Source: Candidatus Saccharimonadota bacterium
Lineage (GTDB): Bacteria; Patescibacteriota; Saccharimonadia; Saccharimonadales; Saccharimonadaceae
Length of the DNA stretch: 32,000 bases
Reading direction: 5' to 3'
Assembly: GCA_002421785.1 (NCBI GenBank)
Contig: DIRZ01000003.1
Location: 310,700 to 342,699 of the forward strand
A program made the position numbers and the translations under genes. This document shows positions 7,430-32,000 of the stretch, piece after piece (position 1 is the stretch's first letter; each line of letters starts with the position of its first letter). A model generated the notes under the pieces. That model was not told the DNA's origin and did no database searches. It worked only from the letters and a program-made list of their open reading frames with translations.

Positions 7430-7445
7430 GCCACCCTTTCAGTTA

Positions 7446-10524: not shown

Positions 10525-10553
10525 TTGACATTTTAGCTTAATTATGATAGACT
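10525..10553 (+). promoter_or_regulatory. Candidate promoter inside the AT-rich block of the island
   Basis: TTGACA (10525-10530), a 17-nt spacer and TAGACT (10548-10553). It would give a leader of about 300 nt before the ATG at 10855. Confidence 0.35.
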
Positions 10554-10854
10554 GTATAAGTCACAGTGAATGAGGTGGAAGCCACTCACTTGAGTACGAG
10601 GACATTGACAATCAGGCTATACCTTACTACTAAAGCCTGTGAGTGTAGCCACAAGGCCCAAGAATACTACGTCTTGGCTTTTTGGCTGCACTTGCAGCGT
10701 GTAATGAGAAACTAGATACCATTCCCCTTTGTGCGCCTGTGCGACAGGGCACCCTGTATACATACGATGTATATAGCGTGCCCCGCCGCACCTGCGCAGT
10801 GTTACGGAGCACCCACCATGTGGGCGCCCGCCCACACGAACGAAGGAGAACCAC

Positions 10855-11742
10855 ATGACCGCGCTCACGCGCCTCACCGAGGCCGAGTACAACGCGCTCA
10901 AGAACCAGATCGACGGCGAGAACGGTGCCGGGTTCGCCCTGTACGTCGCGTTCTCGCGTCAGTCGAACGCCATGGGGGTGGCCACGCCGCTCACCCAGAC
11001 GTTCCGCGACAACCTGAAGGCGTCGTACGACAACCACCTCCCGTTCGATCGGACGCTGCCGAGCTACAACACGTACTCGGCCGTTTTCGACGAATACGAG
11101 GCGGCCCTCCCGCCGGTTCCAACGCCCGCTCCCGCCACCCATCCCGCTCCGGCGGGCGGAGGCAGCGCCGACCCCCTGGGCGAGGACCCGCTCGATGACC
11201 CTGACGATGACTCCGACGACGCGCCCATCGCGCCCGTCACGTCGCGTCCGGTGCATCGCCCGGCCGCTCGTTTCACCCCTCCGGCACCGCCGGCGGGTGA
11301 GCCCACCATCGCTGACGTGTTCACCTTCTTCGGCGGCCTCGTGCCGACGGTGGAGAACCACGCCGACATGTTGGACGAGCACGAGGCCGAGCTGTTCAAT
11401 CCCGACGGCACCAGCCGCCTGGACCAGCTCGAGGACGCCGTCTTCGGAGGCGCCAACCCGGCCCGCCCGTGGTATCCCCGCTCCAGCTCCGCTCACGTCT
11501 CCGACGAGGCCAGCTGGGGGAAGATCGTCGGCGTCGCCATCGTCACGTTCCTCGTGGCCTTCCTGGTCCTGTTGGCAGTCGTCGGCATCGTCGGCGCAGC
11601 CGTCAACTACGGACCGATCGCCGCCATCGCCACCTGGCTGTGGCCGATCACGCTCCTCGCCATCATGGCGGCCATCGTGGCCAGCCTCGTGACCTACCGC
11701 TCCACCACCGCTTCCGCGGTGACGCGGGAGGAAAGGATCTGA
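10855..11742 (+). CDS. Hypothetical membrane protein (acidic and Pro-rich middle, two C-terminal TM helices)
   Basis: 295 aa. AAGGAG at 10843-10848. Extreme GC3. C-terminal hydrophobic stretches IVGVAIVTFLVAFLVLLAVVGIVGAAV and IAAIATWLWPITLLAIMAAIVASLV. Confidence 0.8.
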   Translation: MTALTRLTEAEYNALKNQIDGENGAGFALYVAFSRQSNAMGVATPLTQTFRDNLKASYDNHLPFDRTLPSYNTYSAVFDEYEAALPPVPTPAPATHPAPAGGGSADPLGEDPLDDPDDDSDDAPIAPVTSRPVHRPAARFTPPAPPAGEPTIADVFTFFGGLVPTVENHADMLDEHEAELFNPDGTSRLDQLEDAVFGGANPARPWYPRSSSAHVSDEASWGKIVGVAIVTFLVAFLVLLAVVGIVGAAVNYGPIAAIATWLWPITLLAIMAAIVASLVTYRSTTASAVTREERI

Positions 11743-11743
11743 C

Positions 11744-13201: not shown

Positions 13202-13208
13202 CGTCACC

Positions 13209-13255
13209 GCAGTGGCACCCTAGCTGCCCTTCGGGGTAAGCCTGGGTGCCACTGC
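13209..13255 (+). terminator. GC-rich hairpin after the island operon (no clear U-tract)
   Basis: GCAGTGGCACCC (13209-13220) and GGGTGCCACTGC (13244-13255) form a perfect 12-bp stem. The 23-nt loop contains a CCC-TTCG-GGG mini-hairpin. Confidence 0.55.
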
Positions 13256-13512
13256 ACCCCCCTAGTTTCTCACTACAACCCCTGGCGGGGCACCTGTACG
13301 ATTTATCGTGTGGGTGCCTCGCTGGCACAACTTTAGTACATTCGTAAGGCATAGTCTGATTGACAATCAATCCCCGGCAGTGACTGTACGTTAACAATTA
13401 GCTTTGCATGTCCACGGCATAACAACCGTGGGTACGAACAGTCACAACCAATGGAAACCAACCATTATTACTAATCAATTCTGCTCCTAAAAGCAGAGAA
13501 GGAAATGAGTCT

Positions 13513-21466: not shown

Positions 21467-22063
21467 ATGAAAACACCCACACTATCCGCCCTCTGCCTTA
21501 CACTACTACTCGGAACCGTACCGATTGCTTATTCGTCTGGAACAGCCGTTGCGCTTTCGGACAAAGCCGTCCAGGTGCGCGCCGATCAAGCTGTGGAGCG
21601 TTCACGTAACCCCATGAGCGAAACGGTTCGCAGTCAGCGCGCGTCGACAGTACTCGCAGAAAAAGAAGAGCGCTTCACGGACAAGAAGCTCCAACGATGC
21701 AATAAGAGCCAAGACGGGATCAAGCTTCGCATGCAACAAATTAGCAATCGAGGCGTTAAGCAGCTCGAGGTGTTCAGAAAAATAGCAGACAGGACCAAAG
21801 CCTTCTACGAAACGAAGGGCTATTCGGTTGAGCGATACCCTGCACTTGCAGCCGAAGTTGACCTGCAGTACGAACAGTCAGTTGCTTCGCTACGCGCTAC
21901 TCAATCTTCCCAAAACGAGTGGAGCTGTGACAGCAGCAATCCCTTGCGCGCGATGAGTGGTTTTAGCGACGCAAAGAAGAACGAAATCGCCGCCCTGCGA
22001 GCGTACAAGGACAAAGTTCGCGAGCTGATTCTTCTGGTAAAGCAAGCGGGAGGGACGCAGTAA
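21467..22063 (+). CDS. Secreted hypothetical protein, helical and charged
   Basis: The start is trimmed to MKTPTLSALCLTLLLG (signal peptide) with AGGAGA at 21455-21460 and TATAAT at 21433-21438. The track start at 21398 is GTG/TTG-type and lacks an RBS. Confidence 0.75.
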   Translation: MKTPTLSALCLTLLLGTVPIAYSSGTAVALSDKAVQVRADQAVERSRNPMSETVRSQRASTVLAEKEERFTDKKLQRCNKSQDGIKLRMQQISNRGVKQLEVFRKIADRTKAFYETKGYSVERYPALAAEVDLQYEQSVASLRATQSSQNEWSCDSSNPLRAMSGFSDAKKNEIAALRAYKDKVRELILLVKQAGGTQ

Positions 22064-22350
22064 TGAAACGCGTTATTCGTCGCTACCGATCTATCACTGG
22101 ACTAGTTGCAATCATGTTCATCGTGCTCGTCAGCGCACTCGGGTATACATATGTGCTCAATTACAAGGCGTATGTAGCCTCCGCACCTGCGCAACAATCA
22201 CAAACTATTGCCGCCGAAAACACCGAGGTGCCCGAAATTAACGAAACAAATGATCTTGACGCTGCGCTTGCCACGCTTGACGCTGCAAGTGTCGATAGCC
22301 TGAGCGAAGCCGATTTGCAGTCACTTGAAAACGACTTAAATAGCCTGTAG
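22063..22350 (+). CDS. Small N-terminally anchored acidic protein
   Basis: 95 aa. The ATG overlaps the upstream stop (TAATG). One TM helix (LVAIMFIVLVSALGYTYVL). Confidence 0.65.
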   Translation: MKRVIRRYRSITGLVAIMFIVLVSALGYTYVLNYKAYVASAPAQQSQTIAAENTEVPEINETNDLDAALATLDAASVDSLSEADLQSLENDLNSL

Positions 22351-22390
22351 GTTGACATATCCGCCCCTGTTTGCTACACTAGGCCGAGTT

Positions 22391-22410
22391 ATGGGCCAGT
22401 AGCTCAGCTG
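22391..22410 (+). repeat. Exact 20-nt copy of the 5' end of tRNA-Lys (with 2 upstream nt)
   Basis: ATGGGCCAGTAGCTCAGCTG occurs at 22391-22410 and again at 22513-22532. The upstream copy does not continue into a tRNA fold. Confidence 0.85.
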
Positions 22411-22514
22411 CTGTCCGAGGCGCCTACGCCGAGTAAAGTTATCAAGCACCAGATGCTCTAACCTTAGCGGATATTGCGCTTTCGCAAATGCTTGCGCATA
22501 ATAGACATGAGAAT

Positions 22515-22591
22515 GGGCCAGTAGCTCAGCTGGTTAGAGCACCTGCCTCTTAAGCAGGGTGTCGTGGGTTCAAGCCCCACCTGGCCCTCCA
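22515..22591 (+). tRNA. tRNA-Lys (anticodon CUU), CCA encoded
   Basis: A 77-nt cloverleaf folded by hand: acceptor GGGCCAG/CTGGCCC, D arm GCTC/GAGC, anticodon stem CCTGC/GCAGG with loop CTCTTAA, and T arm GTGGG-TTCAAGC-CCCAC. Confidence 0.92.
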
Positions 22592-22604
22592 AATTGATTC
22601 ATAT

Positions 22605-22644
22605 TATACAAAGTAGCCTCGAAATATCGAGGCTACTTTGTATA
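22605..22644. repeat. Perfect 18-bp inverted repeat (4-nt loop) just 3' of tRNA-Lys
   Basis: TATACAAAGTAGCCTCGA-aata-TCGAGGCTACTTTGTATA. There is no clear U-tract on either side. Confidence 0.6.
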
Positions 22645-22738
22645 TGGGTTAGATTGCATAACACGCCGATAAATGGTTGTTCTTATTTGTATCCATGCAT
22701 ATACTATAGGCATAATCACAATAGGAGATATCGGTAGC

Positions 22739-24109
22739 ATGTTCAGAAAACTAATAACACTCATGGCTGTGAGCATTGTCGCAGCAACCAGTGCCATCCC
22801 TGCATCCGCAGCATCACTCTTGAACGGCCAAGAACACTACTATACCGTACAGTTTCGTAGTGACAGCAAGGCAACAGTTTATGCAAAACTCGCGTTTCAG
22901 AACGGCCAGTCCGACAAAGACCGTGACACCTATACCTTCAGCTTGCCGTCAGGTGTGAGCGCGGACTCGTTGAGCGTTCAACAAATTATTGCTAAAAAAA
23001 CCGAAGTTAGCACCTGTAATCCCAAAATAGTAATCGGCTCGTCAACCGCAACCCAAAACTGTCCCGTAACAACAACCGGATATGATGATGACTTTGATTT
23101 CTTCTCTAATAACAACAACTACGGCTACTATTACGACTATTACTACCCCGAATCCCGCTACGACGATAAATATGAATATACCGATGTCACGCCCAGCGTA
23201 AATGGGCAGACCTACACCGTCAAACTCCCCCGCGCCATTAAGCCCCACAAGCAAGGTGCCGTGCTCGTTACTTTTGTTTCCACGAATTACGTTACAAGCG
23301 CGTTTGGAGGCCGATTTAACTACGACTTCCGCACGCTCATGACCGACGAAATGATCGATGACGCGTCCGTTGCCATTAATTTTGACGAAGAGCTGTACTC
23401 GCGTGATGTCGACCAAAAGCGCACATCAGGCGTAACAGCCGCTAACAGCATCAAATCCGGAGCTGATATGAGTGCGTCGTACGAAAGCAAACGTATTGAT
23501 TCGCTCATCCCAACCATTGGCAACGGTGGTGAATACAATCGTACACAGACAAAAATGCTACCGGGTGACGTGCTCAGCGTAAAGGGAACCTATGCGACAA
23601 ACCCAACGCTACTCTTCCTCAATGAGATTCTCGTGGGGATAGCTATCACGGTAGCTGCCGCTGCCGCGCTATGGTTTGGTTTTAAGCACTATCGAAAGAC
23701 TCATCCACGCAAGTCGCATAGCGATACGAGCGCCGCTATCCATCCTAAATATAATGATGACGCCGAAACTGCATCAATCAAGCACCTGCTGGCGGTAAGT
23801 GGCGCCAGCACGCTCGCCACAGTTGTTGCACTCCTCGTGCTTACCGGGCTCGTAGCGATAGCGAACAATGGTTCTAGCGACCTTATCCCTTACATCCTCA
23901 GCTTGTTCACAATCGTGGTTGTCGGCACTACCGCTGTATTCGCACCAATTGCCTATGTGTTACGCTTCGGCGTACGAAGCTTGCTGCGCTGGCTGCTCAT
24001 TAATGCAGCGCTAATCGCCATACTCTGCTTCGTCGCCATCGGCGTCACGTCTATCGACTCTGGCTACTCCGATCCATACTATGGATCAAGCGAATGCATC
24101 ACCTGCTAG
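22739..24109 (+). CDS. Hypothetical exported/membrane protein (signal peptide, extracellular domain of about 300 aa, C-terminal multi-TM block)
   Basis: The start is trimmed to MFRKLITLMAVSIVAATSAIPASA with AGGAGA at 22723-22728. It has an aromatic/acidic patch DDDFDFFSNNNNYGYYYDYYYPESRYDDKYEY, 4-5 C-terminal TM helices, and ends in ...SSECITC. Confidence 0.8.
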   Translation: MFRKLITLMAVSIVAATSAIPASAASLLNGQEHYYTVQFRSDSKATVYAKLAFQNGQSDKDRDTYTFSLPSGVSADSLSVQQIIAKKTEVSTCNPKIVIGSSTATQNCPVTTTGYDDDFDFFSNNNNYGYYYDYYYPESRYDDKYEYTDVTPSVNGQTYTVKLPRAIKPHKQGAVLVTFVSTNYVTSAFGGRFNYDFRTLMTDEMIDDASVAINFDEELYSRDVDQKRTSGVTAANSIKSGADMSASYESKRIDSLIPTIGNGGEYNRTQTKMLPGDVLSVKGTYATNPTLLFLNEILVGIAITVAAAAALWFGFKHYRKTHPRKSHSDTSAAIHPKYNDDAETASIKHLLAVSGASTLATVVALLVLTGLVAIANNGSSDLIPYILSLFTIVVVGTTAVFAPIAYVLRFGVRSLLRWLLINAALIAILCFVAIGVTSIDSGYSDPYYGSSECITC

Positions 24110-24124
24110 GTAGTCTTGAAGTTT

Positions 24125-24163
24125 ATAGAAAAATGACTAGCGCTAGGCTAGTCATTTTTCTAT
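24125..24163. terminator. Strong bidirectional hairpin
   Basis: TAGAAAAATGACTAGC-gctag-GCTAGTCATTTTTCTA, a 16-bp perfect stem with internal A/T runs. Confidence 0.65.
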
Positions 24164-24204
24164 GGTACACAGTAGTAAGAGAAGTCCAAAACATAATTAA
24201 CAGT
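24163..24204 (+). repeat. 42-nt intergenic direct repeat, copy A
   Basis: TGGTACACAGTAGTAAGAGAAGTCCAAAACATAATTAACAGT. 33 of 42 positions match copy B in an ungapped hand alignment. Confidence 0.75.
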
Positions 24205-24365
24205 GGCTATACGCCCGATGAGCAGTTATGATAAGCATCTTGTTCAGCTCTATGGTTCGAACTTTTGTTTGATCAATTAAACTATTGACAAATGTATTTA
24301 TATGTGATAGTATTTAATCACTAAAGCTGTAATTACAGCATAACTCTTAAACAAATAGGAGGCTC

Positions 24366-25106
24366 ATGGAGCCAATATATCTTGCAACGTTTTTAGTTGC
24401 TCTCATATCAAGTATTTTTAGTGGTCTCGCTGGCGGAGGCGGTGGGTTTATCATGTCGCCATATTGGTTACTTGCAGGACTATCACCAGCTCAAGGAGCA
24501 AATGTCGGAGCGTTCACTGCATTAGGTATGGGCGCAAGTTCATTAGTAGCGTTTCGTAAGACGGGTTATCTGCCTAAAGGTGTTCGCTTAACCGTATTAC
24601 TTGCAGTAGTGACGATAGCCGCTTCTATCGTTGGGGCGTTAGTTTTGCCGAAAATTGACGTATCGTCATTTAAGACAGCGCTAGCCCTGCTTACATTCGC
24701 TTCGTTGCCGCTACTTTTCGTAAAGCGTTCACACACGCACCGTTTCGCACAACACCGCAACATCGGGATTGGACTGATGATTTTGCTGCTTATCGTAAGT
24801 TCAGTAATAATGAGCAGCGCATTCTCGTTACTTATAGCAATCGTACTTATTGGCTTCTTCGACTTATCAACGCTCCAAACGACAGCACTACGCAGGCTTG
24901 TTACACTAAGCCAATCTGCCGTACTGTTTGCTGTACTCACAGTTCAAGGCTTCTTCATATGGCAACACTCACTGGCAGGAATTATCGGTGGAAGCATTGG
25001 AAGTTACATAGGTACAAAGTTCGCTATCTCAAATGGTGAAACATTTGCTAAATGGGCTTTGGCTATAGGTGCACTCATAGGAGCTGTTGCCCTACTCCTA
25101 ACATGA
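24366..25106 (+). CDS. TSUP-family (TauE/SafE-like) anion permease
   Basis: 246 aa. Polytopic, with a GLAGGGGGF(I) motif in the first helix. AGGAGG RBS at about 24358. Confidence 0.85.
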   Translation: MEPIYLATFLVALISSIFSGLAGGGGGFIMSPYWLLAGLSPAQGANVGAFTALGMGASSLVAFRKTGYLPKGVRLTVLLAVVTIAASIVGALVLPKIDVSSFKTALALLTFASLPLLFVKRSHTHRFAQHRNIGIGLMILLLIVSSVIMSSAFSLLIAIVLIGFFDLSTLQTTALRRLVTLSQSAVLFAVLTVQGFFIWQHSLAGIIGGSIGSYIGTKFAISNGETFAKWALAIGALIGAVALLLT

Positions 25107-25166
25107 TGGACACCACACGGAAGTTCAAACTCATATAACAGATACGTGCTGGAAGCCAACAAAAAA

Positions 25167-25190
25167 GAGATTGGTGCCTAAACCAATCTC
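25167..25190. terminator. Hairpin after the TSUP gene
   Basis: GAGATTGGT-gcctaa-ACCAATCTC (9-bp stem), with an A-run before it and a weak T-rich tail. Confidence 0.45.
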
Positions 25191-25207
25191 AATCTGTAAT
25201 TTTCGCG

Positions 25208-25249
25208 TGGTACACCCTAGTTAAAGAAGTTCAAACCATCATTACAAGT
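25208..25249 (+). repeat. 42-nt intergenic direct repeat, copy B
   Basis: TGGTACACCCTAGTTAAAGAAGTTCAAACCATCATTACAAGT. It lies 1045 bp from copy A, and both copies follow a hairpin. Confidence 0.75.
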
Positions 25250-25304
25250 AATATCGTAACTTGATATAAATAAATACCGTCCAAAGATTATATTGTTAAT
25301 AAAC

Positions 25305-25318
25305 CTACCATATGGTAG
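25305..25318. promoter_or_regulatory. Candidate TetR operator (14-nt perfect palindrome)
   Basis: CTACCATATGGTAG sits 10 nt upstream of the TetR ATG. A palindrome this short can arise by chance, so position is the main argument. Confidence 0.4.
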
Positions 25319-25327
25319 TATGGTATT

Positions 25328-25849
25328 ATGATTCAGAAAAAAGATATTATTAAAGCTGCACAGGAACGTATAAAAAACGGGGAAACGGTTTCGCTTGATT
25401 CCGTCGCTCGTGATATAGGATTAACTAAAGCAGGACTAGTGCATCACTATCCTACAAAAAAATCGCTTATGATGGGTCTTGTGAATGATGTCGTAGAAAG
25501 ATGGCAATTAATGCTTGACGCAACTCCTGCTAAACCTAACGCCGAAGACAGGATGATGACTTACCTTAGGTATGCAATGTCTGACGAAATAGACTCATCA
25601 GATTTCGCCTTTATGGCTGACTACAAATTAAAAGATGAGCTTTACGCTAAATGGGCTAAACAGATTGAAGCTTGGTTCAACTTTTACGATATTACGGACA
25701 TTACTAGGCGGTCTGCATTGATGACTGTTCGACTTATCGCTGATGGGGCTTGGTTCGATAGAGGCTTGGGGATGTTGAACATAAGTGTCGAAGAGAGGCA
25801 GTCAATCTTAGACGTCTCAGAGAAAATACTAAAAGAAGGAGTAAAATAA
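25328..25849 (+). CDS. TetR/AcrR-family transcriptional regulator
   Basis: 173 aa. N-terminal HTH SVARDIGLTKAGLVHHYPTKKSL. Its stop overlaps the SMR gene start. Confidence 0.9.
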   Translation: MIQKKDIIKAAQERIKNGETVSLDSVARDIGLTKAGLVHHYPTKKSLMMGLVNDVVERWQLMLDATPAKPNAEDRMMTYLRYAMSDEIDSSDFAFMADYKLKDELYAKWAKQIEAWFNFYDITDITRRSALMTVRLIADGAWFDRGLGMLNISVEERQSILDVSEKILKEGVK

Positions 25850-26196
25850 TGAAACAATGGATATTTCTAGTCGGAGCTATCATTTCGGAAGTAGTAGCTA
25901 CACTTTCATTGAAGGCAGGGATGGATAATTCAATTTTCTATATAGTGGTATTGATAGGTTATGTATTAGCTTTTGTGTTTTTAACAAAAGCACTTAAATC
26001 AGGTATGGCTCTAGGGGTAGCTTATGGGATATGGGGTGCTTGTGGTGTAGCAATGACTGCGTTCCTATCACATTTGATTTTTAACGAACCTTTAACCTCG
26101 ATTATGGTACTAGGGATTGTAGTAATTATTGCTGGCGTACTAATGATTGAATTAGGTTCACAGGCTGCAACTAGAAAAGAGAAAGGAAACGTATAA
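25849..26196 (+). CDS. Small multidrug resistance (SMR) protein, first subunit of a pair
   Basis: 115 aa with 4 TM helices and the conserved membrane Glu in helix 1 (AIISEVVATLSLK). Confidence 0.9.
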   Translation: MKQWIFLVGAIISEVVATLSLKAGMDNSIFYIVVLIGYVLAFVFLTKALKSGMALGVAYGIWGACGVAMTAFLSHLIFNEPLTSIMVLGIVVIIAGVLMIELGSQAATRKEKGNV

Positions 26197-26522
26197 TGGG
26201 TTGGTTATTTCTTATCGGTGCAATTATTGCCGAGGTATCAGGAGCACTTTCATTACGGATGGCAAGCTCAGGCAAGCGTCGATGGTGGGTAGCTGTTGCG
26301 GTTGGATATACTATTGCCTTTACAATGCTGATTTTTACACTTTCTAGCGGTATGGCCCTCGGTGTCGCTTACGGTATATGGGCAGCGTCAGGAGTTGCTC
26401 TTACTGCGATTTTTAGCAAACTACTATTCAAAGAACATCTGACGTTAGTTATGTCCATTGGTATTGCCGTTGTAATTGGAGGTGTGCTTATGATTGAACT
26501 AGGTAGTGGCGCTACGCATTAG
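26196..26522 (+). CDS. Small multidrug resistance (SMR) protein, second subunit of a pair
   Basis: 108 aa with 4 TM helices and the conserved Glu (AIIAEVSGALSLR). Start and stop overlap (TAATG). Confidence 0.9.
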   Translation: MGWLFLIGAIIAEVSGALSLRMASSGKRRWWVAVAVGYTIAFTMLIFTLSSGMALGVAYGIWAASGVALTAIFSKLLFKEHLTLVMSIGIAVVIGGVLMIELGSGATH

Positions 26523-26573
26523 GTTGGATAGAAAATAGACAATTTATAGTGTAGATATATACAATTTATATAC

Positions 26574-26807
26574 TTAACGAAAGTGAGCCTTGCCGTCCGA
26601 GAATCCATTGAATTCACCCTTATGTATTTTGACAGTAACCATATCAGGGTTCCATTCAGAGACTGAAATGGATTCTCCTTCGTTCCCCAATACACTTCTT
26701 CCATAGTAAGTTCCGTTAGGAAAGATTGTGTTAGCGATAGGGTGGTATTGCTCGAACAATTGTCTCTCTAAATAGTCGTTGAGTATCCATAAGAATCTTT
26801 TAAGATT
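26574..26807 (-). pseudogene. 77-codon open frame continuing in-frame past the TAA of the upstream membrane-protein gene (possible severed C-terminal domain)
   Basis: After the stop at 26810-26808 the same frame reads NLKRFLWILNDYLERQLFEQYHPIANTIFPNGTYYGRSVLGNEGESISVSEWNPDMVTVKIHKGEFNGFSDGKAHFR. There is no ATG near its start; the track ORF uses TTG at 26759. Confidence 0.3.
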
Positions 26808-27302
26808 TTATTTTTTCTTATCTTTTTCCATCTGATTGCGAACGATAACAGCAATTAGAGAAGCGATGATAACAGTAATAGGCAGGGTACTCCAAAACTT
26901 ATCCCATTTCTGGTCGCCGGTAGCTTCGTAGCCATCGTCTGCATATTCGACACAGCTACTGCCCCTATTATCTGTATCCGACTCCACACAAGAAGGTCCG
27001 CCTAAACTCATTCCCAAGTATGCACTGACTACAACGGCAGCAATAACGCCAATTATAATGAACGGTAGCAATCGTCCTTTTTCAACTTCCTTTTTAATCC
27101 ACTCCCATCCGTACATTCCGATGAATGTTATGACACATACTGCAAGCCCAATACCCGCTCCCCATAAAAATCCTGATAGGGGGTCGGGATTGTCACCCAT
27201 AAATCCAATAAGTCCACCTAGAACTCCAAACATAAGGATTGGAATCAACATTAAGAAATAAATACCTTTAGACATTTCTTTCTTTTGATTTTGTTGGGTC
27301 AT
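26808..27302 (-). CDS. Hypothetical 4-TM membrane protein with a Cys-containing acidic loop
   Basis: 164 aa. Its ATG overlaps the stop of the SHOCT gene (ATGA at 27302-27299). Confidence 0.75.
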   Translation of the reverse strand: MTQQNQKKEMSKGIYFLMLIPILMFGVLGGLIGFMGDNPDPLSGFLWGAGIGLAVCVITFIGMYGWEWIKKEVEKGRLLPFIIIGVIAAVVVSAYLGMSLGGPSCVESDTDNRGSSCVEYADDGYEATGDQKWDKFWSTLPITVIIASLIAVIVRNQMEKDKKK

Positions 27303-27943
27303 ATAGACGTCCTACCGTTAAGTACTTTAGCTTTTTCTGTATCAAACTCAGCTTGGGTCAATATACCTTGTTCTTTGAGGTTAGCGAGTTTACCGAGTTC
27401 ATCAGCTATGCTTACTCGTGGTTGCGGCTGAGCAGAGACTACTTGGTGTGATGCACTAACTTGTTTAACAGACGAGATAACCTTAGCTAATTTAGCTCTC
27501 AAAGCCATAGGTGCTTTATTTTCCACGAATAAAATAACTTCTTGACCATCAATAAGTTCAAGCGTGATATACGATTCTTGGTCTTTGCTCTTCTTCTTGA
27601 GTGCAAAAGCAAATATACCAACTGCAATAAGTCGGGTTACGGTAACACGCCTATTAACTTCATCTTTACCTTCTACAAGAATGTCTTTGATTTGAGAATT
27701 AGGTATAGTGAACTTTGTACTCATAACAGCACTGAACTCTGTTTGGTTTTGGTAAAAAGTAATAATGCCATTCGCTTTACGACCATCACCGTATCCACCC
27801 ATATACTCCACAGCTAGAGCGTCTAGTTTAGCCCCTCTAATATCCTTTAGTTCGGCTGACTTCTGCTGTTGCTCTTGATAGCTCTTCTGAATTGATTTAC
27901 CAGCTTTATCACTTGCATCTTTAACCTTGTCGAAGAATGACAT
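27299..27943 (-). CDS. SHOCT-domain protein with a PH/GRAM-like N-terminal region
   Basis: 214 aa. The C-terminal ELGKLANLKEQGILTQAEFDTEKAKVL matches the SHOCT pattern. The central beta-rich region with an embedded hydrophobic hairpin resembles bacterial PH-like domains (my impression only). Confidence 0.75.
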   Translation of the reverse strand: MSFFDKVKDASDKAGKSIQKSYQEQQQKSAELKDIRGAKLDALAVEYMGGYGDGRKANGIITFYQNQTEFSAVMSTKFTIPNSQIKDILVEGKDEVNRRVTVTRLIAVGIFAFALKKKSKDQESYITLELIDGQEVILFVENKAPMALRAKLAKVISSVKQVSASHQVVSAQPQPRVSIADELGKLANLKEQGILTQAEFDTEKAKVLNGRTSI

Positions 27944-28083
27944 TTCTAAGCTCCTAATTTCATTTTGAATTAATCATTTACGTTTACTATACAACATCAA
28001 TACCTATATATTTGTTAGCGGGCAAACACCATTAACTATTTATCAATACTTTTTATATAACAGTACAACCCCGTTAATTAAGT

Positions 28084-28124
28084 AATAATAAACAGCTAGT
28101 TTATGTAACTATCTGTTTATTATT
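28084..28124. promoter_or_regulatory. 12-bp perfect inverted repeat upstream of the XRE gene (operator or terminator)
   Basis: AATAATAAACAG, a 17-nt spacer, then CTGTTTATTATT. TATGAT (28132-28137) follows and abuts the ATG. Confidence 0.45.
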
Positions 28125-28137
28125 TTACGCTTATGAT

Positions 28138-28356
28138 ATGAATGAAAACGAATTGATGAAAACATTTGGCAAGCGTGTTGCAGTAGTACGAAAAAGTAAA
28201 GGCGTAACGCAACAACAATTAGCCGAAAGTATTAGTATGAGCGTCGTAGCAATTGCATATATCGAAACTGGTAAGCGGTGGGCTAGACTCGGTACATTAA
28301 ATAAGATTGCAAGCTCATTGAAAGTAGATATAGCAGACTTATTTAAAGATATTTAG
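28138..28356 (+). CDS. XRE-family helix-turn-helix regulator
   Basis: 72 aa. HTH_3 pattern GVTQQQLAESISMSVVAIAYIETGKR. No SD. The real start may be the second ATG (MKTFGKR). Confidence 0.88.
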   Translation: MNENELMKTFGKRVAVVRKSKGVTQQQLAESISMSVVAIAYIETGKRWARLGTLNKIASSLKVDIADLFKDI

Positions 28357-28403
28357 CTGTTAATCTGACAGTCAAATAATAATTATCAGTGACGTTACAT
28401 AGG

Positions 28404-28895
28404 CTATTTCCAATACATTGTCAGAAAACCTTTGTAGGGACTGTTCTTCCCATCAACACCAGGAACTTTCCTAACTCTTCGCTTCCATTCCACATTATTT
28501 AGAACATCTACAGGCGGTTGTTTATAAAGCTTCTTGAAGTCTTTTCTAGCAGCTTCGATAATTTTTTTCTCACCAAAGTCCTCCCAATCTATATGCGACA
28601 TTAAGATTTGAAAAACGCCATCGTAAAAGAACCTGTCTTCAACTTTGAAACGCCAGTCTTTGTCAAAAATAAATAGTTGTTGATTTTTCCAATCTTCATC
28701 TTCAACTCTGTAACCTAAAAATCCTTGTGGGTGAGGCACGAAGGAGAATCGTACATTACAGTTCGTCAGTAAACCTCCCTTGAGCCTAGAAGCTACTACG
28801 CCATTATTAGCGTGTATAAAATCTCCTACGTTATACCTACTTAGAAATATCGAATCTGCTTCAATATCGGCATAGAAAAACTCGTACTCTTCCAT
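28404..28895 (-). CDS. Hypothetical protein (aromatic-rich, soluble)
   Basis: 163 aa, starting 3 nt downstream of the HTH gene on the same strand. No family recognised. Confidence 0.7.
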   Translation of the reverse strand: MEEYEFFYADIEADSIFLSRYNVGDFIHANNGVVASRLKGGLLTNCNVRFSFVPHPQGFLGYRVEDEDWKNQQLFIFDKDWRFKVEDRFFYDGVFQILMSHIDWEDFGEKKIIEAARKDFKKLYKQPPVDVLNNVEWKRRVRKVPGVDGKNSPYKGFLTMYWK

Positions 28896-28898
28896 TAT

Positions 28899-29222
28899 TT
28901 ATACCCTCGGCACTTCGTCAGCAATAGCTAGAGAGGGAGTAACGACCTTTTCTAATAGCCATAAACTGCTCTCATAATCACCTTCTATTATCGCTCTACT
29001 AACATTTGATTTAGCGATTGTTAGCAGCTTATTTCGTGCAAGTTCCATTTTTTCAGCAAAGATTCTATCTTCACGGAAGTAACGGTAAAATGTATCCCTA
29101 CTAATTCCAGCGTAGTAACAAGCTTCTGAAATAGTAGACCCGTACTGCAATGAGTCCTCCAATTTACTTATAATCTGATAATTAACTTTTTGTGGTCTAC
29201 CTATTGGTTTTTTATTAACCAT
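28899..29222 (-). CDS. HTH protein resembling phage terminase small subunits / HTH_23-type DNA-binding proteins
   Basis: 107 aa. GRPQK...STISEACYYAGISRDTFYRYFREDRIFAEKMELAR is the pattern seen in many TerS-like or transposase-type HTH proteins. Confidence 0.7.
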   Translation of the reverse strand: MVNKKPIGRPQKVNYQIISKLEDSLQYGSTISEACYYAGISRDTFYRYFREDRIFAEKMELARNKLLTIAKSNVSRAIIEGDYESSLWLLEKVVTPSLAIADEVPRV

Positions 29223-29344
29223 AAAAACTCCTGTTTATATTTGTTTTATCTCTACTCTTATTATAGAGAGAATAGCTTTTTCAATTTCTTACATATAACG
29301 AAATCACCGTCAGAATATCCAAATCGCTTACAATATAAATAGCT

Positions 29345-29851
29345 ATGAATAAATACTTTGCATTCAATACACCGCAGATAGAAGTAGACCCTGAGTTTAA
29401 TAATATCTTTCTTGTAGTGTACGCAATTCTTTCCCTTATGGCTTTAGGTATGGCGGTTTGGTATTTTGCACCAATCCTTTATAAGAAAAGGAAGAATAAC
29501 ATAGCCGCAAAGTCTCTCTTGAAGAACTCTATTTGGTATGACCTGAAAGAAACCGAACTCCATTCAGGCGATAATAAAATAAGAATTGAACCAAAATCTC
29601 TTGAACACTATGTATGTAAAATAACATTCAACTCTCCTAATAAATATATTGACGACTATGCAGTGTTTGAAGCTAGAGATAATGCCGTATCTCTTGCAAA
29701 ACTTAAAGAATCCCGAAGAGGCGTAGAACAAGCTGTTCGACGCTTAAATGATAAAGGTAGGAAGCTTGGATTAAAAACTGATTTATTCAAACGCAGTAAA
29801 GAACGAACTTCCGTTAATGACGAATATCGTCTGAGAATCACTCGAAACTAA
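29345..29851 (+). CDS. Hypothetical N-terminally anchored protein with a basic C-terminus
   Basis: 168 aa with one TM helix (IFLVVYAILSLMALGMAVWYF). The C-terminal RRGVEQAVRRLNDKGRKLGL...EYRLRI faintly resembles a winged-helix output domain. This is speculative. Confidence 0.65.
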   Translation: MNKYFAFNTPQIEVDPEFNNIFLVVYAILSLMALGMAVWYFAPILYKKRKNNIAAKSLLKNSIWYDLKETELHSGDNKIRIEPKSLEHYVCKITFNSPNKYIDDYAVFEARDNAVSLAKLKESRRGVEQAVRRLNDKGRKLGLKTDLFKRSKERTSVNDEYRLRITRN

Positions 29852-29870
29852 TATAACTGAACTTGAACAT

Positions 29871-29903
29871 ACCGCCCGTAATACGGCGGTTTTTTCGTTT
29901 TTT
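29871..29903 (+). terminator. Intrinsic terminator
   Basis: ACCGCC-cgtaatac-GGCGGT followed by TTTTTCGTTTTTT. Confidence 0.8.
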
Positions 29904-30241
29904 ACATCTGTTACTAACATATCCTAACAAGTTATTGCTAAGTCCTAACAGCCCCCTCCCTATAGTGGAACTTAGTTTTTCAGCAAGCGACTAACGAATC
30001 ACCGTACATATACGATTCAACAGCAGTCACATAAGAAAAGCTAACGACAGAAAACCAATAAACAAAGGGAGAAACATCTTAAAGATATAGAGAAGAAGTA
30101 AAACAGTCACAAATAATAATTAGTAATCGTTTACGAATAACTTTGTAAGCATTCTATTCTAATTGCCTTAACTTAGCTGGATTCAATCCACGACTGGGCT
30201 GGTTAAGTGCGTCAAAAATTAGAGTAACAGGTGGTAAAAAT

Positions 30242-30394
30242 ATGCAGTTAAAAGAAAAGCAAATAAAAGAGTTTCAAGTACTCTACAAGAAAAACTTCGG
30301 CAAGAAGATAAGTAAACAAAAAGCAATCGTAGATGGAATGGCTTTGATACGCCTAGTCTACTTAACACAACCGAATTATGGAGCTAGGAAATGA
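30242..30394 (+). CDS. Small basic protein (50 aa), translationally coupled to the ATPase gene
   Basis: This ORF is too short for the track. It reads MQLKEKQIKEFQVLYKKNFGKKISKQKAIVDGMALIRLVYLTQPNYGARK. GGTGG lies upstream, and its TGA overlaps the ATG at 30391 (ATGA). Confidence 0.5.
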   Translation: MQLKEKQIKEFQVLYKKNFGKKISKQKAIVDGMALIRLVYLTQPNYGARK

Positions 30395-31431
30395 CCTCTC
30401 CAAATCGCAACCGATACAAAGAGCTTTGGGAAAAAGGTACACAGACAGGCCAGCTAAGGCTCTCTACTGAACGATTGAGCGATTTGTTGCTAGAGGAGTT
30501 TCCGCCAGAAGTTTGGGCTATAGAAGGCTTAATACCAGCCGAGGGAGTAACAATCATCTCAGGCTCACCTGGAAGTTTCAAAACTTGGCTATATATGGAG
30601 ATGGCAGTGAAAGTTGCTCAGGGTGAGAGTGTGTTTGGACATTTCCCTTCTAAACAGATGGGGGTAATGGTTATTGATGAAGAGAGTGGACGACAGAGAC
30701 TACAAAAGCGGTTCAAACAAATGGGAGCTTCTGAAAATACAGAGATTCATTTTACTTCCAGAATTGGCTATAAGATGAACCATTTATATGTAGACGCAAT
30801 CGCAAAAGAAGCTAAAGAAAAAGAAATTGGCTTAGTTATATTTGATTCCTTTACCCGCTTCAATAATGCTGATGAAAACGCTTCTGGTGATATGGCTACG
30901 CTTATGGACTGCTATAGGCAGTTGGCGGATACAGGACTTGCAGTATTGATTCTGCACCACAACCGAAAAGGTGTCGCAGGGCAAAGCAATCCAGCAATGG
31001 AAATGCGTGGTTCTTCCGACATTTTAGCTGCCGCAGATTGTCACATTGCAGTAAACCGTGTTGGTCAAAGCGAGTTCGTAAGACTTACACAAACCAAGAA
31101 TAGAGATATTTGGGAGCCAGCCCCATTTGAACTGAGGTTTCACGAGAATGCTACAGAGTTTGAATATGTAGGCGAAGGAAAGTCGTCAGCAGACCGACAC
31201 AATGAACAGCTGAAAGAAATTGTAGAAGCAGTAGGGTTATATCCTGGATTATCTAAAAGGCAGCTTGTAGCACAAATTAAGACAGATGGGTTCAAAGGTG
31301 GTGATAAAAAGATTAGCGACTGCCTAGATGAGCTAGCTCGTACAGAGATGGTAAGAGTACTACCTGGTGGGCGTAATTCTTATAAATACTATTTACCCTC
31401 TGACGAGCCGAGTGCCGCAAAAAATGATTAG
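30391..31431 (+). CDS. RecA-fold AAA_25-type ATPase (RepA-like replication/mobilisation protein) with a C-terminal winged-helix
   Basis: 346 aa. Walker A GSPGSFKT, Walker B LVIFDSF, and an LILHHNRK motif typical of AAA_25. C-terminal LSKRQLVAQIK...LDELARTEMVRV. Confidence 0.88.
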   Translation: MTSPNRNRYKELWEKGTQTGQLRLSTERLSDLLLEEFPPEVWAIEGLIPAEGVTIISGSPGSFKTWLYMEMAVKVAQGESVFGHFPSKQMGVMVIDEESGRQRLQKRFKQMGASENTEIHFTSRIGYKMNHLYVDAIAKEAKEKEIGLVIFDSFTRFNNADENASGDMATLMDCYRQLADTGLAVLILHHNRKGVAGQSNPAMEMRGSSDILAAADCHIAVNRVGQSEFVRLTQTKNRDIWEPAPFELRFHENATEFEYVGEGKSSADRHNEQLKEIVEAVGLYPGLSKRQLVAQIKTDGFKGGDKKISDCLDELARTEMVRVLPGGRNSYKYYLPSDEPSAAKND

Positions 31432-31554
31432 TTATAGGTGTATACATTTTTGCTTCACTCACTTAATCCCACAGTGTAGACCACCACCTCTATAAACATA
31501 AACTAATTGTTTAACATAATACTAATAAAGTTATATAATATAGATAGGAAAACT

Positions 31555-32000
31555 ATGAACTTAGAACAACTGAAATACGGACTTTACGCAAGAAAGTCTA
31601 ACGAAAGCGAAGACAAACAAATTGCGTCACTAGATGACCAACTAGAAACAATGACCGAAATTGCAGAAGCAAGAGAATATCGTATCGTCAAAAAAGCGAT
31701 ATATAAGGAATCTAAATCTGCAAAGATACCAGACCAGCGGATAAAGTTTGATGAGCTTATCGAACAAATAGAAAAAGGTAATATAAACGCTATTCTTACC
31801 TATAAATCTAATCGCTTAGCTCGTAATCCAAAAGAGAGTGGAGTTATCCAGCAGCTAATGTTTGATGGCAAACTTAAAGCTATTATTACCAAGGATAAAA
31901 ACTACCTTCCAGAAGATAACGCCCTTATATTTAGCATAGACGCAGCTCAAGATACTCAGTTTAGTCGTGATTTATCAATAATTGTAAAAGACCGAATGTC
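31555..32000 (+). CDS. Serine recombinase (resolvase/integrase N-terminal catalytic domain), truncated by the window end
   Basis: It is absent from the track because it has no stop. My translation is MNLEQLKYGLYARKSNESEDKQIASLDDQ...ILTYKSNRLARN...DAAQDTQFSRDLS, which fits the catalytic Ser in YARKS and the RLARN motif of the resolvase domain. Confidence 0.88.
   Translation, partial: MNLEQLKYGLYARKSNESEDKQIASLDDQLETMTEIAEAREYRIVKKAIYKESKSAKIPDQRIKFDELIEQIEKGNINAILTYKSNRLARNPKESGVIQQLMFDGKLKAIITKDKNYLPEDNALIFSIDAAQDTQFSRDLSIIVKDRM

What the first reader, a model, noticed from the sequence alone, without database searches (positions are those of the whole stretch)
26523..32000. Low-GC element with a phage-satellite-like gene set: serine recombinase, AAA_25 replicase-like ATPase, XRE switch and TerS-like HTH
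The block is about 38% GC and gene-dense, with small genes of unknown function. It combines a truncated serine recombinase, a coupled pair of a small basic protein and a RecA-fold ATPase, an XRE regulator opposite a divergent operon, and a terminase-small-subunit-like HTH protein. It has no capsid, tail or portal genes. That inventory resembles the integrase, regulator, replication and TerS logic of phage-inducible chromosomal islands, or a small integrative plasmid-like element. Such satellites are essentially undescribed in ultra-small, CPR-type bacteria. The TSUP/TetR/SMR genes to the left may be cargo.
Basis: partly seen in the sequence, partly recalled or inferred. Interest (0 to 1): 0.65.

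Follow-up and report, generated by a model that had tools for sequence, protein, structure and literature searches.

The report
tRNA-targeting mobile element of Saccharibacteria
The low-GC block is one end-to-end copy of an active 8-kb mobile DNA element that a large serine recombinase inserts into the 3' end of tRNA genes of ultra-small Saccharibacteria, and near-identical copies in different species show it is currently carrying resistance and anti-phage genes between them.

Summary
The element starts at 25208, not 26523. It ends about 1.18 kb past the window, at a tRNA-Arg(TCG) gene, and is 7,974 bp long. A 10-bp direct repeat, TGGTACACCC, flanks it; this is the reverse complement of the tRNA 3' end GGGTGTACCA. 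The recombinase is a complete 560-aa large serine recombinase, cut only by the window edge, and no structural phage genes follow it.

Copies 98.7-99.9% identical sit at several tRNA genes (Arg, Tyr) in Saccharibacteria whose flanking DNA is only 71-78% identical. One metagenome contig carries the predicted attP junction, with the right end, one core and the left end joined.

The core holds an XRE repressor, a TerS-family HTH, an ADP-ribosyltransferase-fold protein, a membrane-anchored OmpR-type regulator, a 50-aa basic protein, a RepA-like helicase and the recombinase. The cargo is swappable. Here it is TetR plus an EbrAB/Qac-like SMR pair. Elsewhere it is ArsR/CadD, CBASS-like, DISARM-like, restriction-modification or Iet-like genes.

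The architecture resembles streptococcal PICIs and tycheposons. Satellite behaviour is not shown, and the transfer route is unknown. I found no published description.

The parts
24163..24191 (+). Relic attL-like site (TGGTACACAGTAGTAAGAGAAGTCCAAAA), the left end of an older, decayed family member
   Evidence: 26 of 29 matches to the family left-end consensus; 0 matches expected by chance in 100 shuffles. Aligns with the left ends of six family members.
24366..25106 (+). TSUP/TauE membrane protein. It is outside the active element, between the relic attL and the live attL, and may be leftover cargo of an earlier insertion.
   Evidence: PF01925. Segment GC is 42.8%, intermediate between host and element. 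Absent from every other copy of the element.
25167..25190 (-). Host terminator hairpin that lay just downstream of tRNA-Arg before insertion
   Evidence: Terminator scan. It sits 18 nt outside attL, and other insertion sites have analogous hairpins at the same place.
25208..25237 (+). attL: the 10-bp core TGGTACACCC (25208-25217) plus the element's P' arm, with the conserved GAAGTTCAAAC motif
   Evidence: Similarity to seven other insertion contexts (L002, L004, L007, L008, L028-L031) begins exactly here. The core repeats at attR.
25328..25849 (+). Cargo: TetR-family regulator
   Evidence: PF17937 TetR_C_28
25849..26522 (+). Cargo: two tandem SMR efflux genes (115 and 108 aa), EbrAB/Qac-like and presumably a heterodimer
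   Evidence: PF00893. NCBIfam Qac, EbrA and EbrB models score 1e-12 to 5e-18, below the equivalog cut-offs.
26808..27943 (-). Cargo: 214-aa SHOCT-domain protein and 164-aa multi-pass membrane protein, overlapping; function unknown
   Evidence: SHOCT 1.8e-7 and phrog_888 5e-11. No PADLOC hit. Replaced by other cargo in L001 and L006.
28084..28124 (.). 18-nt inverted repeat (AATAATAAACAGCTAGTT / AACTATCTGTTTATTATT). Candidate XRE operator and the breakpoint between variable cargo and conserved core.
   Evidence: Inverted repeat I2, 94% complementary. Similarity to the ArsR/CadD and Iet-like variants begins at 28084-28089.
28138..28356 (+). XRE/Cro-CI-type repressor (72 aa)
   Evidence: HTH_3 1e-11; phrog_5823 1e-15
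28404..28895 (-). p163: protein with a predicted ADP-ribosyltransferase-like fold, translationally coupled to the HTH gene upstream
   Evidence: AlphaFold2 pLDDT 79. Foldseek matches to Tre1, C3, SpvB and VIP2 ADP-ribosyltransferases, E about 1e-4, TM 0.45-0.5. No sequence-level support.
28899..29222 (-). HTH107: short member of the terminase-small-subunit (phrog_4102) family and first gene of the leftward, cargo-side operon
   Evidence: phrog_4102 8.8e-14. 38-40% identity to the IPP26 TerS and the Javan594 satellite gene. 377 representative clusters at E<=1e-10, mostly 120-200 aa; the ten scanned, taken among the nearest, all match phrog_4102.
29223..29344 (.). Divergent promoter region between the leftward (HTH107-p163-cargo) and rightward (p168...) transcription units
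   Evidence: Gene layout. Inference only; no strong consensus promoter found.
29345..29851 (+). p168: N-terminal transmembrane helix plus a C-terminal OmpR/ToxR/CadC-type winged-helix DNA-binding domain
   Evidence: AlphaFold2 pLDDT 84, helix 16-60. Foldseek matches ToxR 8b4d, CadC 5ju7, CovR, AdeR and OmpR, target-normalised TM 0.6-0.76.
29871..29900 (+). Intrinsic terminator after p168
   Evidence: Terminator scan
29901..30241 (.). 340-nt non-coding stretch upstream of p50. Candidate replication origin or regulatory region (inferred). An IS is inserted here in L006.
   Evidence: No ORF of 40 aa or more spans the stretch; no Rfam hit; no clear iterons; IS insertion at 29944-29947 in L006.
30242..30394 (+). 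p50: small basic protein overlapping the helicase start. Kept next to the recombinase-side operon across the family; candidate recombination directionality factor or loader (inferred).
   Evidence: pI 10.2. Homologues in L012-L019, where the replication gene is swapped in L018, and in L089.
30391..31431 (+). RepA-like (AAA_25) hexameric-helicase-type ATPase with a C-terminal winged-helix-like tail; presumed replication protein of the excised circle
   Evidence: PF13481 1.1e-34. RSF1010 RepA 1g8y 4.7e-7. Distant phage primase/helicase hits. Walker A GSPGSFKT and Walker B VIFDS are visible in the sequence.
31511..31539 (+). Promoter-like site for the recombinase (TTAACA-17-TATAAT, 11/12)
   Evidence: Best consensus match in the scan
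31555..32000 (+). N-terminal 148 codons of the large serine recombinase. The gene continues to window-equivalent 33237 and attR lies at 33172-33181, both beyond the window.
   Evidence: Resolvase 2.3e-13. The full 560-aa ORF in L003 has Resolvase, Recombinase and Zn ribbon domains. Its last 21 codons are antisense to tRNA-Arg(TCG).

Best explanation
Window 25208-32000, plus 1,181 nt beyond the window, is one integrated copy of an active 7,974-bp integrative element of Candidatus Saccharibacteria.

Shown:
- A large serine recombinase (LSR) sits at the right end. Its own reading frame runs across the attachment site.
- The element lies at the extreme 3' end of a tRNA gene. Both junctions carry TGGTACACCC, the reverse complement of the tRNA 3' end GGGTGTACCA.
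- At tRNA-Tyr, tRNA-Leu and tRNA-Arg(TCT) sites only TGGTAC is shared between the junctions, so strand exchange lies within those 6 bp.
- Every occupied tRNA but one ends in GTACCA. The tRNA stays intact, and the element supplies a terminator hairpin for it.
- Near-identical copies sit in unrelated Saccharibacteria at different tRNA genes.
- A contig carrying the attP junction exists.

Inferred:
- The central dinucleotide is AC, corresponding to G71-U72 of the tRNA.
- The P' arm carries a mimic of the tRNA T-loop (TTCAAACC) placed 5 bp further out than TTCGAACC in attB, as in the standard LSR attP/attB geometry.
- After excision the circle is copied using the RepA-like helicase, probably from the non-coding stretch upstream of p50.
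- The XRE repressor, the TerS-family HTH and the membrane-anchored OmpR-type protein control the two divergent operons and excision.
- p50 or HTH107 acts as the recombination directionality factor.
- Everything between attL and the 28084 palindrome is an exchangeable cargo slot. Here it holds TetR plus a paired SMR efflux pump, which may be selected by cationic biocides in wastewater.

The route between cells is not determined.
For: Boundaries and att sites:
- Identical left junction at 25208 in five contexts (L002, L003, L004, L007, L008), plus four more from a DNA pattern scan (L028-L031).
- The right junction lies in the tRNA 3' end.
- Left ends with the same core are found in six more divergent members.

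Target rule:
- 17 of the 18 distinct tRNA genes ending in GTACCA in the fetched loci carry an element or a remnant of one. Only 1 of 40 other tRNA genes does.
- Tyr, Leu and Arg(TCT) sites share only TGGTAC with attP.
- The best attP dyad is centred on AC, 11 of 22 matches.

Mobility:
- The exact 346-aa helicase occurs in 613 collection blocks.
- Element identity is 98.7-99.9% between hosts whose flanks align over less than 15% of their length at 71-78%.
- All 13 genome hits are Saccharibacteria.

Excision or circularisation:
- The predicted circular-form recombinase (557 aa, tail WYTLVKEVQTIITSNIVT) exists verbatim in the protein collection.
- Its contig, L084, joins the right end, a single core and the left end.

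Recombinase: Resolvase, Recombinase and Zn ribbon domains; nearest NCBIfam models are XisF, CcrB and CcrC.

Helicase: AAA_25 1e-34 and RSF1010 RepA.

Cargo swapping: ArsR/CadD, Iet-like, SMODS+CARF, SMODS+SLATT, C5 methylase+HNH, ABC-2 transporter, Y-family polymerase+SRAP, DISARM-like.

tRNA kept intact: Rfam tRNA 69.7 bits. Terminator hairpin z = -3.98.
Against: - The attP junction rests on one 2.7-kb contig and could be a head-to-tail tandem rather than a free circle.
- No empty attB was found for the window's own species; all 7 contigs with the identical TSUP carry the element.
- No origin (iterons) was identified. No primase is encoded, so autonomous replication is inferred only from the helicase.
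- No transfer function was found: no relaxase, coupling protein or capsid genes.
- The roles assigned to p50, HTH107, p163 and p168 come from fold or position, not from tests.
- The loci were collected through the recombinase, so the tRNA-end statistic is not an unbiased sample.
Confidence: 0.82

Rival explanations
1. It is a true phage satellite (PICI-like). A Saccharibacteria helper phage derepresses it. It then excises, replicates with RepA, and its TerS-family protein redirects the helper's large terminase to package the 8-kb genome into helper capsids, which carry it to other species.
For: - HTH107 belongs to the TerS family phrog_4102.
- It is 38% identical over 92 residues to the gene directly upstream of, and overlapping, TerL and the portal in pneumophage IPP26.
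- It is 40% identical over 85 residues to a gene of S. suis satellite prophages that also carry an AAA_25 RepA and an integrase.
- In IMG/VR the same TerS family occurs in two size classes, 5-15-kb islands and 35-53-kb prophages.
- The 8-kb size, the XRE switch, the defence cargo and the lack of structural genes all fit PICIs.
- Capsid delivery of double-stranded DNA would explain precise recombinase-mediated insertion in distant species.
Against: - No relative of HTH107, the helicase or the recombinase was found in 2.9 million IMG/VR contigs using the element's own proteins.
- Every close homologue of HTH107 (104-113 aa) lies in this element family, never next to a TerL.
- It lacks the 25-90 C-terminal residues its TerS relatives have.
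- It heads the cargo operon and is coupled to an ADP-ribosyltransferase-fold protein.
- Homologues persist in sister lineages whose recombinases are about 30% identical, while several members of the same recombinase clade lack it.
- No capsid-remodelling genes. No helper phage is known.
Confidence: 0.25
2. It is an integrative mobilizable element moved by the chromosomal type IV secretion system of Patescibacteria, or taken up by natural transformation. HTH107 or p50 would serve as excisionase or accessory factors, and a non-canonical relaxase or oriT remains unrecognised.
For: - T4SS pilin and TrbL genes lie within 10 kb of the element in L004 and L007.
- Patescibacteria T4SS is widespread and homologous to monoderm conjugation machinery (PMC12102498).
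- Saccharibacteria are naturally competent (PMC10633639).
- HTH107 shows weak excisionase, HTH_17 and HTH_7 resemblance, E 5e-4 to 2e-3.
Against: - No relaxase, coupling protein or rolling-circle Rep domain in any ORF.
- Most Patescibacteria T4SS clusters lack relaxases and are thought to be repurposed (PMC12102498).
- Transformation imports single strands and needs flanking homology, which hosts only 71-78% identical lack. It would not by itself produce recombinase-precise junctions at different tRNA genes.
Confidence: 0.12
3. It is a decayed prophage remnant or a fixed genomic island that no longer moves.
For: Low GC, phage-like regulators and a TerS-family gene. Some copies carry an IS insertion (L006), a nonsense mutation in the recombinase (P0070, 510 aa) or frameshifts (L033).
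Against: - All core ORFs are intact in the window copy.
- 98.7-99.9% identity across hosts that differ at genus or species level, at several tRNA genes.
- An attP junction contig exists.
- No structural-gene relics occur anywhere in the family.
Confidence: 0.03

Closest known systems
Phage-inducible chromosomal islands of Gram-positive cocci (SaPIs; Streptococcus 'Javan' satellite prophages such as Javan594, MK448557)
   Same: - 8-11 kb in size, with an integrase at one end.
- XRE-type regulator and divergent operons.
- AAA_25 RepA-type helicase.
- A phrog_4102 TerS-family gene, 40% identical over 85 residues to the Javan594 gene.
- Accessory cargo and no structural or lysis genes.
   Different: - A large serine recombinase instead of a tyrosine integrase.
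- The TerS-like gene is shorter, divergently placed, and coupled to an ADP-ribosyltransferase-fold gene.
- No primase domain and no capsid-size or packaging-interference genes.
- No helper phage known.
- The helicases are only distantly related (BLASTP E about 0.01).
- The host is a CPR bacterium.
Tycheposons of Prochlorococcus (Hackl et al., bioRxiv 10.1101/2020.12.28.424599)
   Same: - Hosts with streamlined genomes.
- Site-specific integrase facing inward at one end, a small replication module and a cargo slot.
- Integration at the 3' ends of a small set of tRNA genes.
- Decayed relics accumulate next to the tRNA, as with the relic attL at 24163.
- Both PICI-like and cargo-carrying variants exist, and a minority use a large serine recombinase.
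   Different: - Tycheposons are defined largely by a lineage-specific tyrosine recombinase and shared hallmark genes, and homology to those was not tested here.
- Their att repeats are partial tRNAs of tens of bp. Here only 6-10 bp are shared, as expected for a serine recombinase.
Staphylococcal cassette chromosome (SCC/SCCmec) elements
   Same: - Ccr-type large serine recombinase; CcrB and CcrC are among the nearest NCBIfam models.
- Insertion at the extreme 3' end of a conserved housekeeping gene without inactivating it.
- An element-encoded replicative helicase (Cch; from my own knowledge of Mir-Sanchis et al. 2016).
- Resistance cargo, no transfer genes, and an unresolved transfer route.
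   Different: - The target is rlmH, not tRNA genes.
- Its helicase belongs to another family.
- SCC elements are 20-60 kb.
- The scores to the Ccr models are far below their cut-offs (73 and 58 bits against 900).
Phage large serine integrases (phiC31, Bxb1, TP901-1, A118 type) and multi-targeting large serine recombinases
   Same: Same domain set. Short att sites with a non-palindromic central dinucleotide. The inferred 5-bp offset of the outer motif between attP and attB fits the Van Duyne/Rutherford model, which I cite from my own knowledge.
   Different: - Serine integrases usually target protein-coding genes, while tRNA genes are the classic targets of tyrosine integrases (PMC8092301).
- This enzyme uses a 6-bp feature shared by several tRNA species.
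- Its own 3' coding end contains attP.

Membership tests
Large serine recombinase (serine integrase) | N-terminal resolvase catalytic domain with the Arg-x-Ser nucleophile motif | tested here: met
   PF00239 2.3e-13 on the window part and 1.8e-12 on the full protein. YARKSNES motif at residues 10-17.
Large serine recombinase (serine integrase) | C-terminal Recombinase domain plus zinc-ribbon domain; total length over 400 aa | tested here: met
   PF07508 4.3e-8; PF13408 5.8e-5 (23.8 bits, just under the 25.3 cut-off); 560 aa.
Large serine recombinase (serine integrase) | Short att sites with only a few identical bp at the crossover, and attL/attR hybrids flanking the element | tested here: met
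   6-10 bp shared core at both junctions. The attP junction was recovered.
Phage-inducible chromosomal island / phage satellite | Small size (under about 15 kb), integrase, replication module, and no structural or lysis genes | tested here: met
   7,974 bp; large serine recombinase; RepA-like helicase; no capsid, portal, tail or lysin hits.
Phage-inducible chromosomal island / phage satellite | Gene(s) that redirect helper packaging (TerS, capsid-size or interference genes) | tested here: inconclusive
   A TerS-family homologue is present. It lacks the C-terminal part, is never found next to a TerL, and is absent from several members of the same recombinase clade.
Phage-inducible chromosomal island / phage satellite | Induction by a helper phage and transfer inside helper capsids | not testable with these tools
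   No hit in IMG/VR with the element's own proteins. This is weak negative evidence only.
Tycheposon | [quoted passage not shown] | tested here: met
   compared with the definition quoted.
Tycheposon | Tycheposon-lineage tyrosine recombinase and shared hallmark gene set | tested here: not met
   The integrase is a serine recombinase. Homology to tycheposon hallmark genes was not tested.
SCC element | Ccr recombinase that integrates at the 3' end of rlmH (orfX) | tested here: not met
   CcrB and CcrC models score 73 and 58 bits against a cut-off of 900. The target is a tRNA gene.
Integrative conjugative or mobilizable element | Relaxase and/or oriT, with or without a coupling protein or T4SS | tested here: not met
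   No relaxase, rolling-circle Rep or FtsK/TraG domain in any ORF. An oriT cannot be excluded.
Prophage | Capsid, portal, large terminase, tail and lysis genes | tested here: not met
   None found in the window part or in the full element in L001-L008.
Terminase small subunit (phrog_4102 type) | N-terminal HTH plus oligomerisation helices, a C-terminal TerL-binding region, and a gene adjacent to terL | tested here: inconclusive
   The N-terminal 92 residues are homologous. The C-terminal 25-90 residues of relatives are missing. No terL lies adjacent.

The most novel reading that the evidence does not exclude
This would be the first phage-satellite family described in CPR/Patescibacteria. It would be an 8-kb island using a tRNA-3'-end-specific large serine recombinase, with a truncated TerS and a coupled ADP-ribosyltransferase-fold protein to hijack or sabotage a Saccharibacteria helper phage. 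It would ferry defence systems and biocide or metal resistance between species of ultra-small epibionts. A further twist is that attP lies inside the recombinase gene, so the enzyme's C-terminal tail differs between the integrated and excised states and could bias the direction of recombination.
Probability: 0.22. Interest if true: 0.85.

Novelty: new variant of a known kind. Interest (0 to 1): 0.62.

Why it matters
- Mobile elements are thought to be scarce in Saccharibacteria and other CPR bacteria. One study found no prophages in environmental TM7 (PMC7739484), and their T4SS mostly lacks relaxases (PMC12102498).
- Here a single small element is present in hundreds of public assemblies and is nearly identical across species. 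It has mapped ends, a defined 6-bp target rule and a swappable cargo slot.
- This gives a concrete vehicle for recent horizontal transfer of defence systems and of Qac-type efflux or cadmium resistance in this phylum.
- It also offers a ready-made tool, a compact serine integrase with attP and natural attB sites in tRNA genes. That would suit site-specific genome engineering of Saccharibacteria, for which the only genetic tool I found described is transformation by natural competence (PMC10633639).
- It makes testable whether phage satellites exist in CPR bacteria.

Tried and rejected
- **IMG/VR scans.** Scans with HTH107, the helicase and the recombinase found nothing. The alignment-based scan found only streptococcal phages and satellites.
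- **Exact attP pattern in JGI metagenome contigs.** No hits. A control scan showed only 4 contigs there carry the left end at all, so this negative says little.
- **Empty site in the window's own species.** All contigs with the identical TSUP protein carry the element.
- **Circular contig.** The 8,058-bp contig carrying the 510-aa recombinase variant (P0070) is an integrated copy with a nonsense mutation, not a circle.
- **Replication origin.** No convincing iterons. Rfam found nothing but the tRNA.
- **p163 and p168.** No hits in phage genomes, in Pfam above threshold, in PADLOC, or by sequence in the PDB. Only fold searches were informative.
- **Plasmid relatives of the helicase.** Only 26-29% identity.
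- **tRNA C72 to U72 conversion.** I considered whether insertion changes this base and rejected it, because both attL and attR carry TGGTAC, so the target must already have U72.
- **tRNA-Lys at 22515.** I considered it as the attachment site and rejected it; it is an unrelated conserved tRNA gene.
- **Literature.** Eight searches found no description of this element.

Full report
**1. Observation**

The region 26523-32000 has 37.5% GC. The DNA to its left has about 50-52%. About 81% of 25208-32000 is coding.

- A serine-recombinase N-terminus at 31555-32000 (Resolvase 2.3e-13; phrog_95 integrase).
- A 50-aa basic protein (pI 10.2) overlapping by 4 nt an AAA_25 ATPase (PF13481 1.1e-34).
- An XRE protein (HTH_3 1e-11).
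- A 107-aa HTH protein that matches 'terminase small subunit' phrog_4102 at 8.8e-14.

No ORF matches capsid, portal, tail or lysis families.

**2. Extending the contig and fixing the boundaries**

The exact 346-aa ATPase occurs in 613 blocks of the public assembly collection. One locus, L003, comes from an 812-kb contig and is 100% identical to window 22001-32000. It therefore extends the window, with window coordinate = L003 coordinate + 20390.

Beyond 32000 lies only the rest of a 560-aa large serine recombinase with Resolvase, Recombinase and Zn-ribbon domains. After it come a tRNA-Arg(TCG) gene on the opposite strand, then murB and pilin genes. There is no prophage.

Comparison with seven other genomic contexts places the left edge of similarity exactly at window 25208, at TGGTACACCCTAGTTAAAG. 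The right edge is at the same 10-mer, which abuts the tRNA. TGGTACACCC is the reverse complement of the tRNA 3' end GGGTGTACCA.

The element is therefore 7,974 bp, from window 25208 to window-equivalent 33181. TetR and the two SMR genes are inside it. TSUP is outside it.

**3. Target and crossover**

In the near-identical copies (L001-L011) the occupied genes are tRNA-Arg(TCG), tRNA-Arg(GCG) and tRNA-Tyr(GTA). More divergent members, with recombinases 57-71% identical, also use tRNA-Leu(CAG) and tRNA-Arg(TCT).

At the Tyr, Leu and Arg(TCT) sites only TGGTAC is common to attL and attR, so exchange happens within those six bases.

In the fetched Saccharibacteria loci, 17 of the 18 distinct tRNA genes that end in GTACCA carry an element or a remnant of one. 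Only 1 of 40 other tRNA genes does, and that one is an ATACCA variant. This sample was collected through the recombinase, so it is not unbiased.

The best dyad in attP is centred on the AC of TGGT-AC-ACCC, with 11 of 22 matches. A requirement for a matching central dinucleotide would explain why only tRNAs with U72 (a G1·U72 pair) are used. This is inference.

Read directly from the sequences, the conserved left-arm motif TTCAAACC lies 16 nt from TGGTAC. The tRNA T-loop motif TTCGAACC lies 11 nt from it. That 5-bp offset is what the established attP/attB model for serine integrases expects; I cite that model from my own knowledge.

The tRNA remains complete (Rfam 69.7 bits). A hairpin plus U-run on the tRNA strand, 12 nt past the CCA, lies inside the recombinase coding region (z = -3.98). 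The element therefore gives the tRNA a new terminator. The original terminator sits just outside attL at 25167-25190.

**4. Evidence that the element is active**

- The element is 98.7-99.9% identical between hosts whose 13 kb of flanking DNA align over less than 15% of their length, at 71-78% identity. That implies recent transfer between species.
- All 13 hits in a one-genome-per-species collection are Candidatus Saccharibacteria.
- Because attP lies inside the recombinase gene, the excised form predicts a different C-terminus: 557 aa ending WYTLVKEVQTIITSNIVT, against 548-570 aa in the integrated forms. That exact 557-aa protein exists in the collection.
- Its contig, L084 (2,755 bp, assembled with k = 141), joins the right end, a single core and 245 bp of the left end. 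A 10-bp repeat cannot create such a join at k = 141. The molecule is therefore real, either an excised circle or a head-to-tail tandem.

**5. Gene content**

The conserved core starts at an 18-nt palindrome (28084-28124) just upstream of the XRE gene. This palindrome is also the breakpoint where cargo differs between copies.

Leftward operon:
- HTH107, the TerS-family protein.
- p163. Its model has pLDDT 79 and an ADP-ribosyltransferase-like fold, with E about 1e-4 and TM about 0.5 to Tre1, C3, SpvB and VIP2. There is no sequence-level support, and its catalytic status is unknown.

Rightward genes:
- p168. Its model has pLDDT 84, an N-terminal transmembrane helix, and an OmpR/ToxR/CadC-type winged helix.
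- A terminator, followed by 340 nt of non-coding DNA.
- p50.
- The RepA-like helicase, which matches RSF1010 RepA 1g8y at 4.7e-7.
- The recombinase, behind its own strong promoter-like site.

Cargo in this copy is TetR plus an EbrAB/Qac-like SMR pair, and a SHOCT protein with a membrane protein of unknown function.

Cargo in other copies and relatives:
- ArsR/CadD
- IetA-like ATPase with an Hsp70-like protein
- SMODS with a transmembrane-CARF protein
- SMODS with SLATT
- C5 methylase with HNH
- ABC-2 transporter
- Y-family polymerase with SRAP
- a DISARM-like set

**6. Is it a satellite?**

For:
- HTH107 is 38% identical over 92 residues to the gene that overlaps TerL, followed by the SPP1-type portal, in pneumophage IPP26.
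- It is 40% identical over 85 residues to a gene of S. suis satellite prophages that also encode an AAA_25 RepA.
- An exhaustive profile search finds 377 representative clusters at E <= 1e-10, mostly 120-200 aa. The ten I scanned, taken among the nearest, all match phrog_4102.

Against:
- The Saccharibacteria proteins are 104-113 aa and lack the C-terminal part of their TerS relatives.
- All close homologues sit in this element family, never beside a TerL.
- The gene always heads the cargo-side operon.
- Homologues persist in sister lineages whose recombinases are only about 30% identical: L024, and L089, which is inserted antisense into tRNA-Lys. Several members of the window's own recombinase clade lack it.
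- Nothing from the element is in IMG/VR.

I therefore rate true satellite behaviour at about 0.25. I keep the transfer route open. Conjugation lacks a relaxase. Transformation is possible in principle (PMC10633639) but fits the precise junctions in hosts with divergent flanks poorly.

**7. Comparison with known systems and novelty**

The element works like a PICI or tycheposon-type island: an integrase at one end, a small replication module, regulators and a cargo slot, with relics accumulating at a tRNA gene.

It also resembles SCC elements. These combine a serine recombinase with a helicase and resistance cargo, insert at the 3' end of a housekeeping gene, and have no known transfer genes.

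It differs in four ways:
- It uses a serine recombinase on tRNA genes, a target normally associated with tyrosine integrases (PMC8092301).
- It recognises a 6-bp feature shared by several tRNA species.
- It carries attP inside the recombinase gene.
- It lives in CPR bacteria.

Eight literature searches found no description of it. I class it as a new variant of a known kind.

**8. Verdict**

Noticed in passing
window 24125-25207: A second, degenerate copy of the element's left end lies at 24163-24191 (26 of 29 matches to the family consensus; 0 expected by chance). A perfect 17-nt hairpin precedes it, and the TSUP gene follows it in a segment of intermediate GC (42.8%). It looks like the relic of an earlier family member inserted at the same tRNA, as described for tycheposon islands.
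   Followed up: partly
window 10500-13500: A 3-kb block of 63.8% GC sits in a genome of about 50% GC, next to tRNA-Glu (9576-9650). Long ORFs overlap on both strands, and a 12-nt-period repeat (CACGCCGCCGAC, 12778-12940) is present. No Pfam hits. It may be a Pro/Thr-rich surface protein or foreign DNA.
   Followed up: partly
L003 12782-12847 (window-equivalent 33172-33237, beyond the window): The last 21 codons of the recombinase are the antisense of the host tRNA. The tail therefore differs with each insertion site (548, 560 or 570 aa) and with state (557 aa when excised). A sister lineage whose recombinase is 31% identical, at tRNA-Lys (L089), shows the same arrangement.
   Followed up: partly
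L003 12742-12781 (beyond the window), minus strand: A hairpin plus U-run inside the recombinase coding sequence (z = -3.98) sits 12 nt after the tRNA CCA end. Comparable hairpins occur in all family members, so the element appears to replace the tRNA's terminator.
   Followed up: partly
L006 8283-9554 (window-equivalent 29944-29947): An rve-family insertion sequence has landed in the non-coding stretch between the p168 terminator and p50 in one otherwise 99% identical copy.
   Followed up: no
L001-L021 tRNA genes: Every occupied tRNA (Arg, Tyr, Leu) has a G1·U72 wobble pair and A73, apart from L010, whose ATACCA end was not checked. The tRNA-Arg(TCT) genes without an element (L013, L021) have G1-C72, while the occupied one (L018) has U72. 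Whether U72 is native variation or a footprint of the element is not fully settled.
   Followed up: partly
L024-L027 and L089-L091: Two sister element lineages have recombinases only about 30% identical. Both keep a TerS-family HTH gene as the first gene of an operon carrying defence cargo: DISARM-like in one, N6-methylase plus ResIII helicase in the other. The HTH-first cargo operon may be a general design.
   Followed up: partly
L033 (JGI 3300001592), 6963-7485 and 12027-12741: A copy in the same genomic context as the window has split TetR and helicase ORFs. These are either true pseudogenes or sequencing frameshifts in an older assembly.
   Followed up: no
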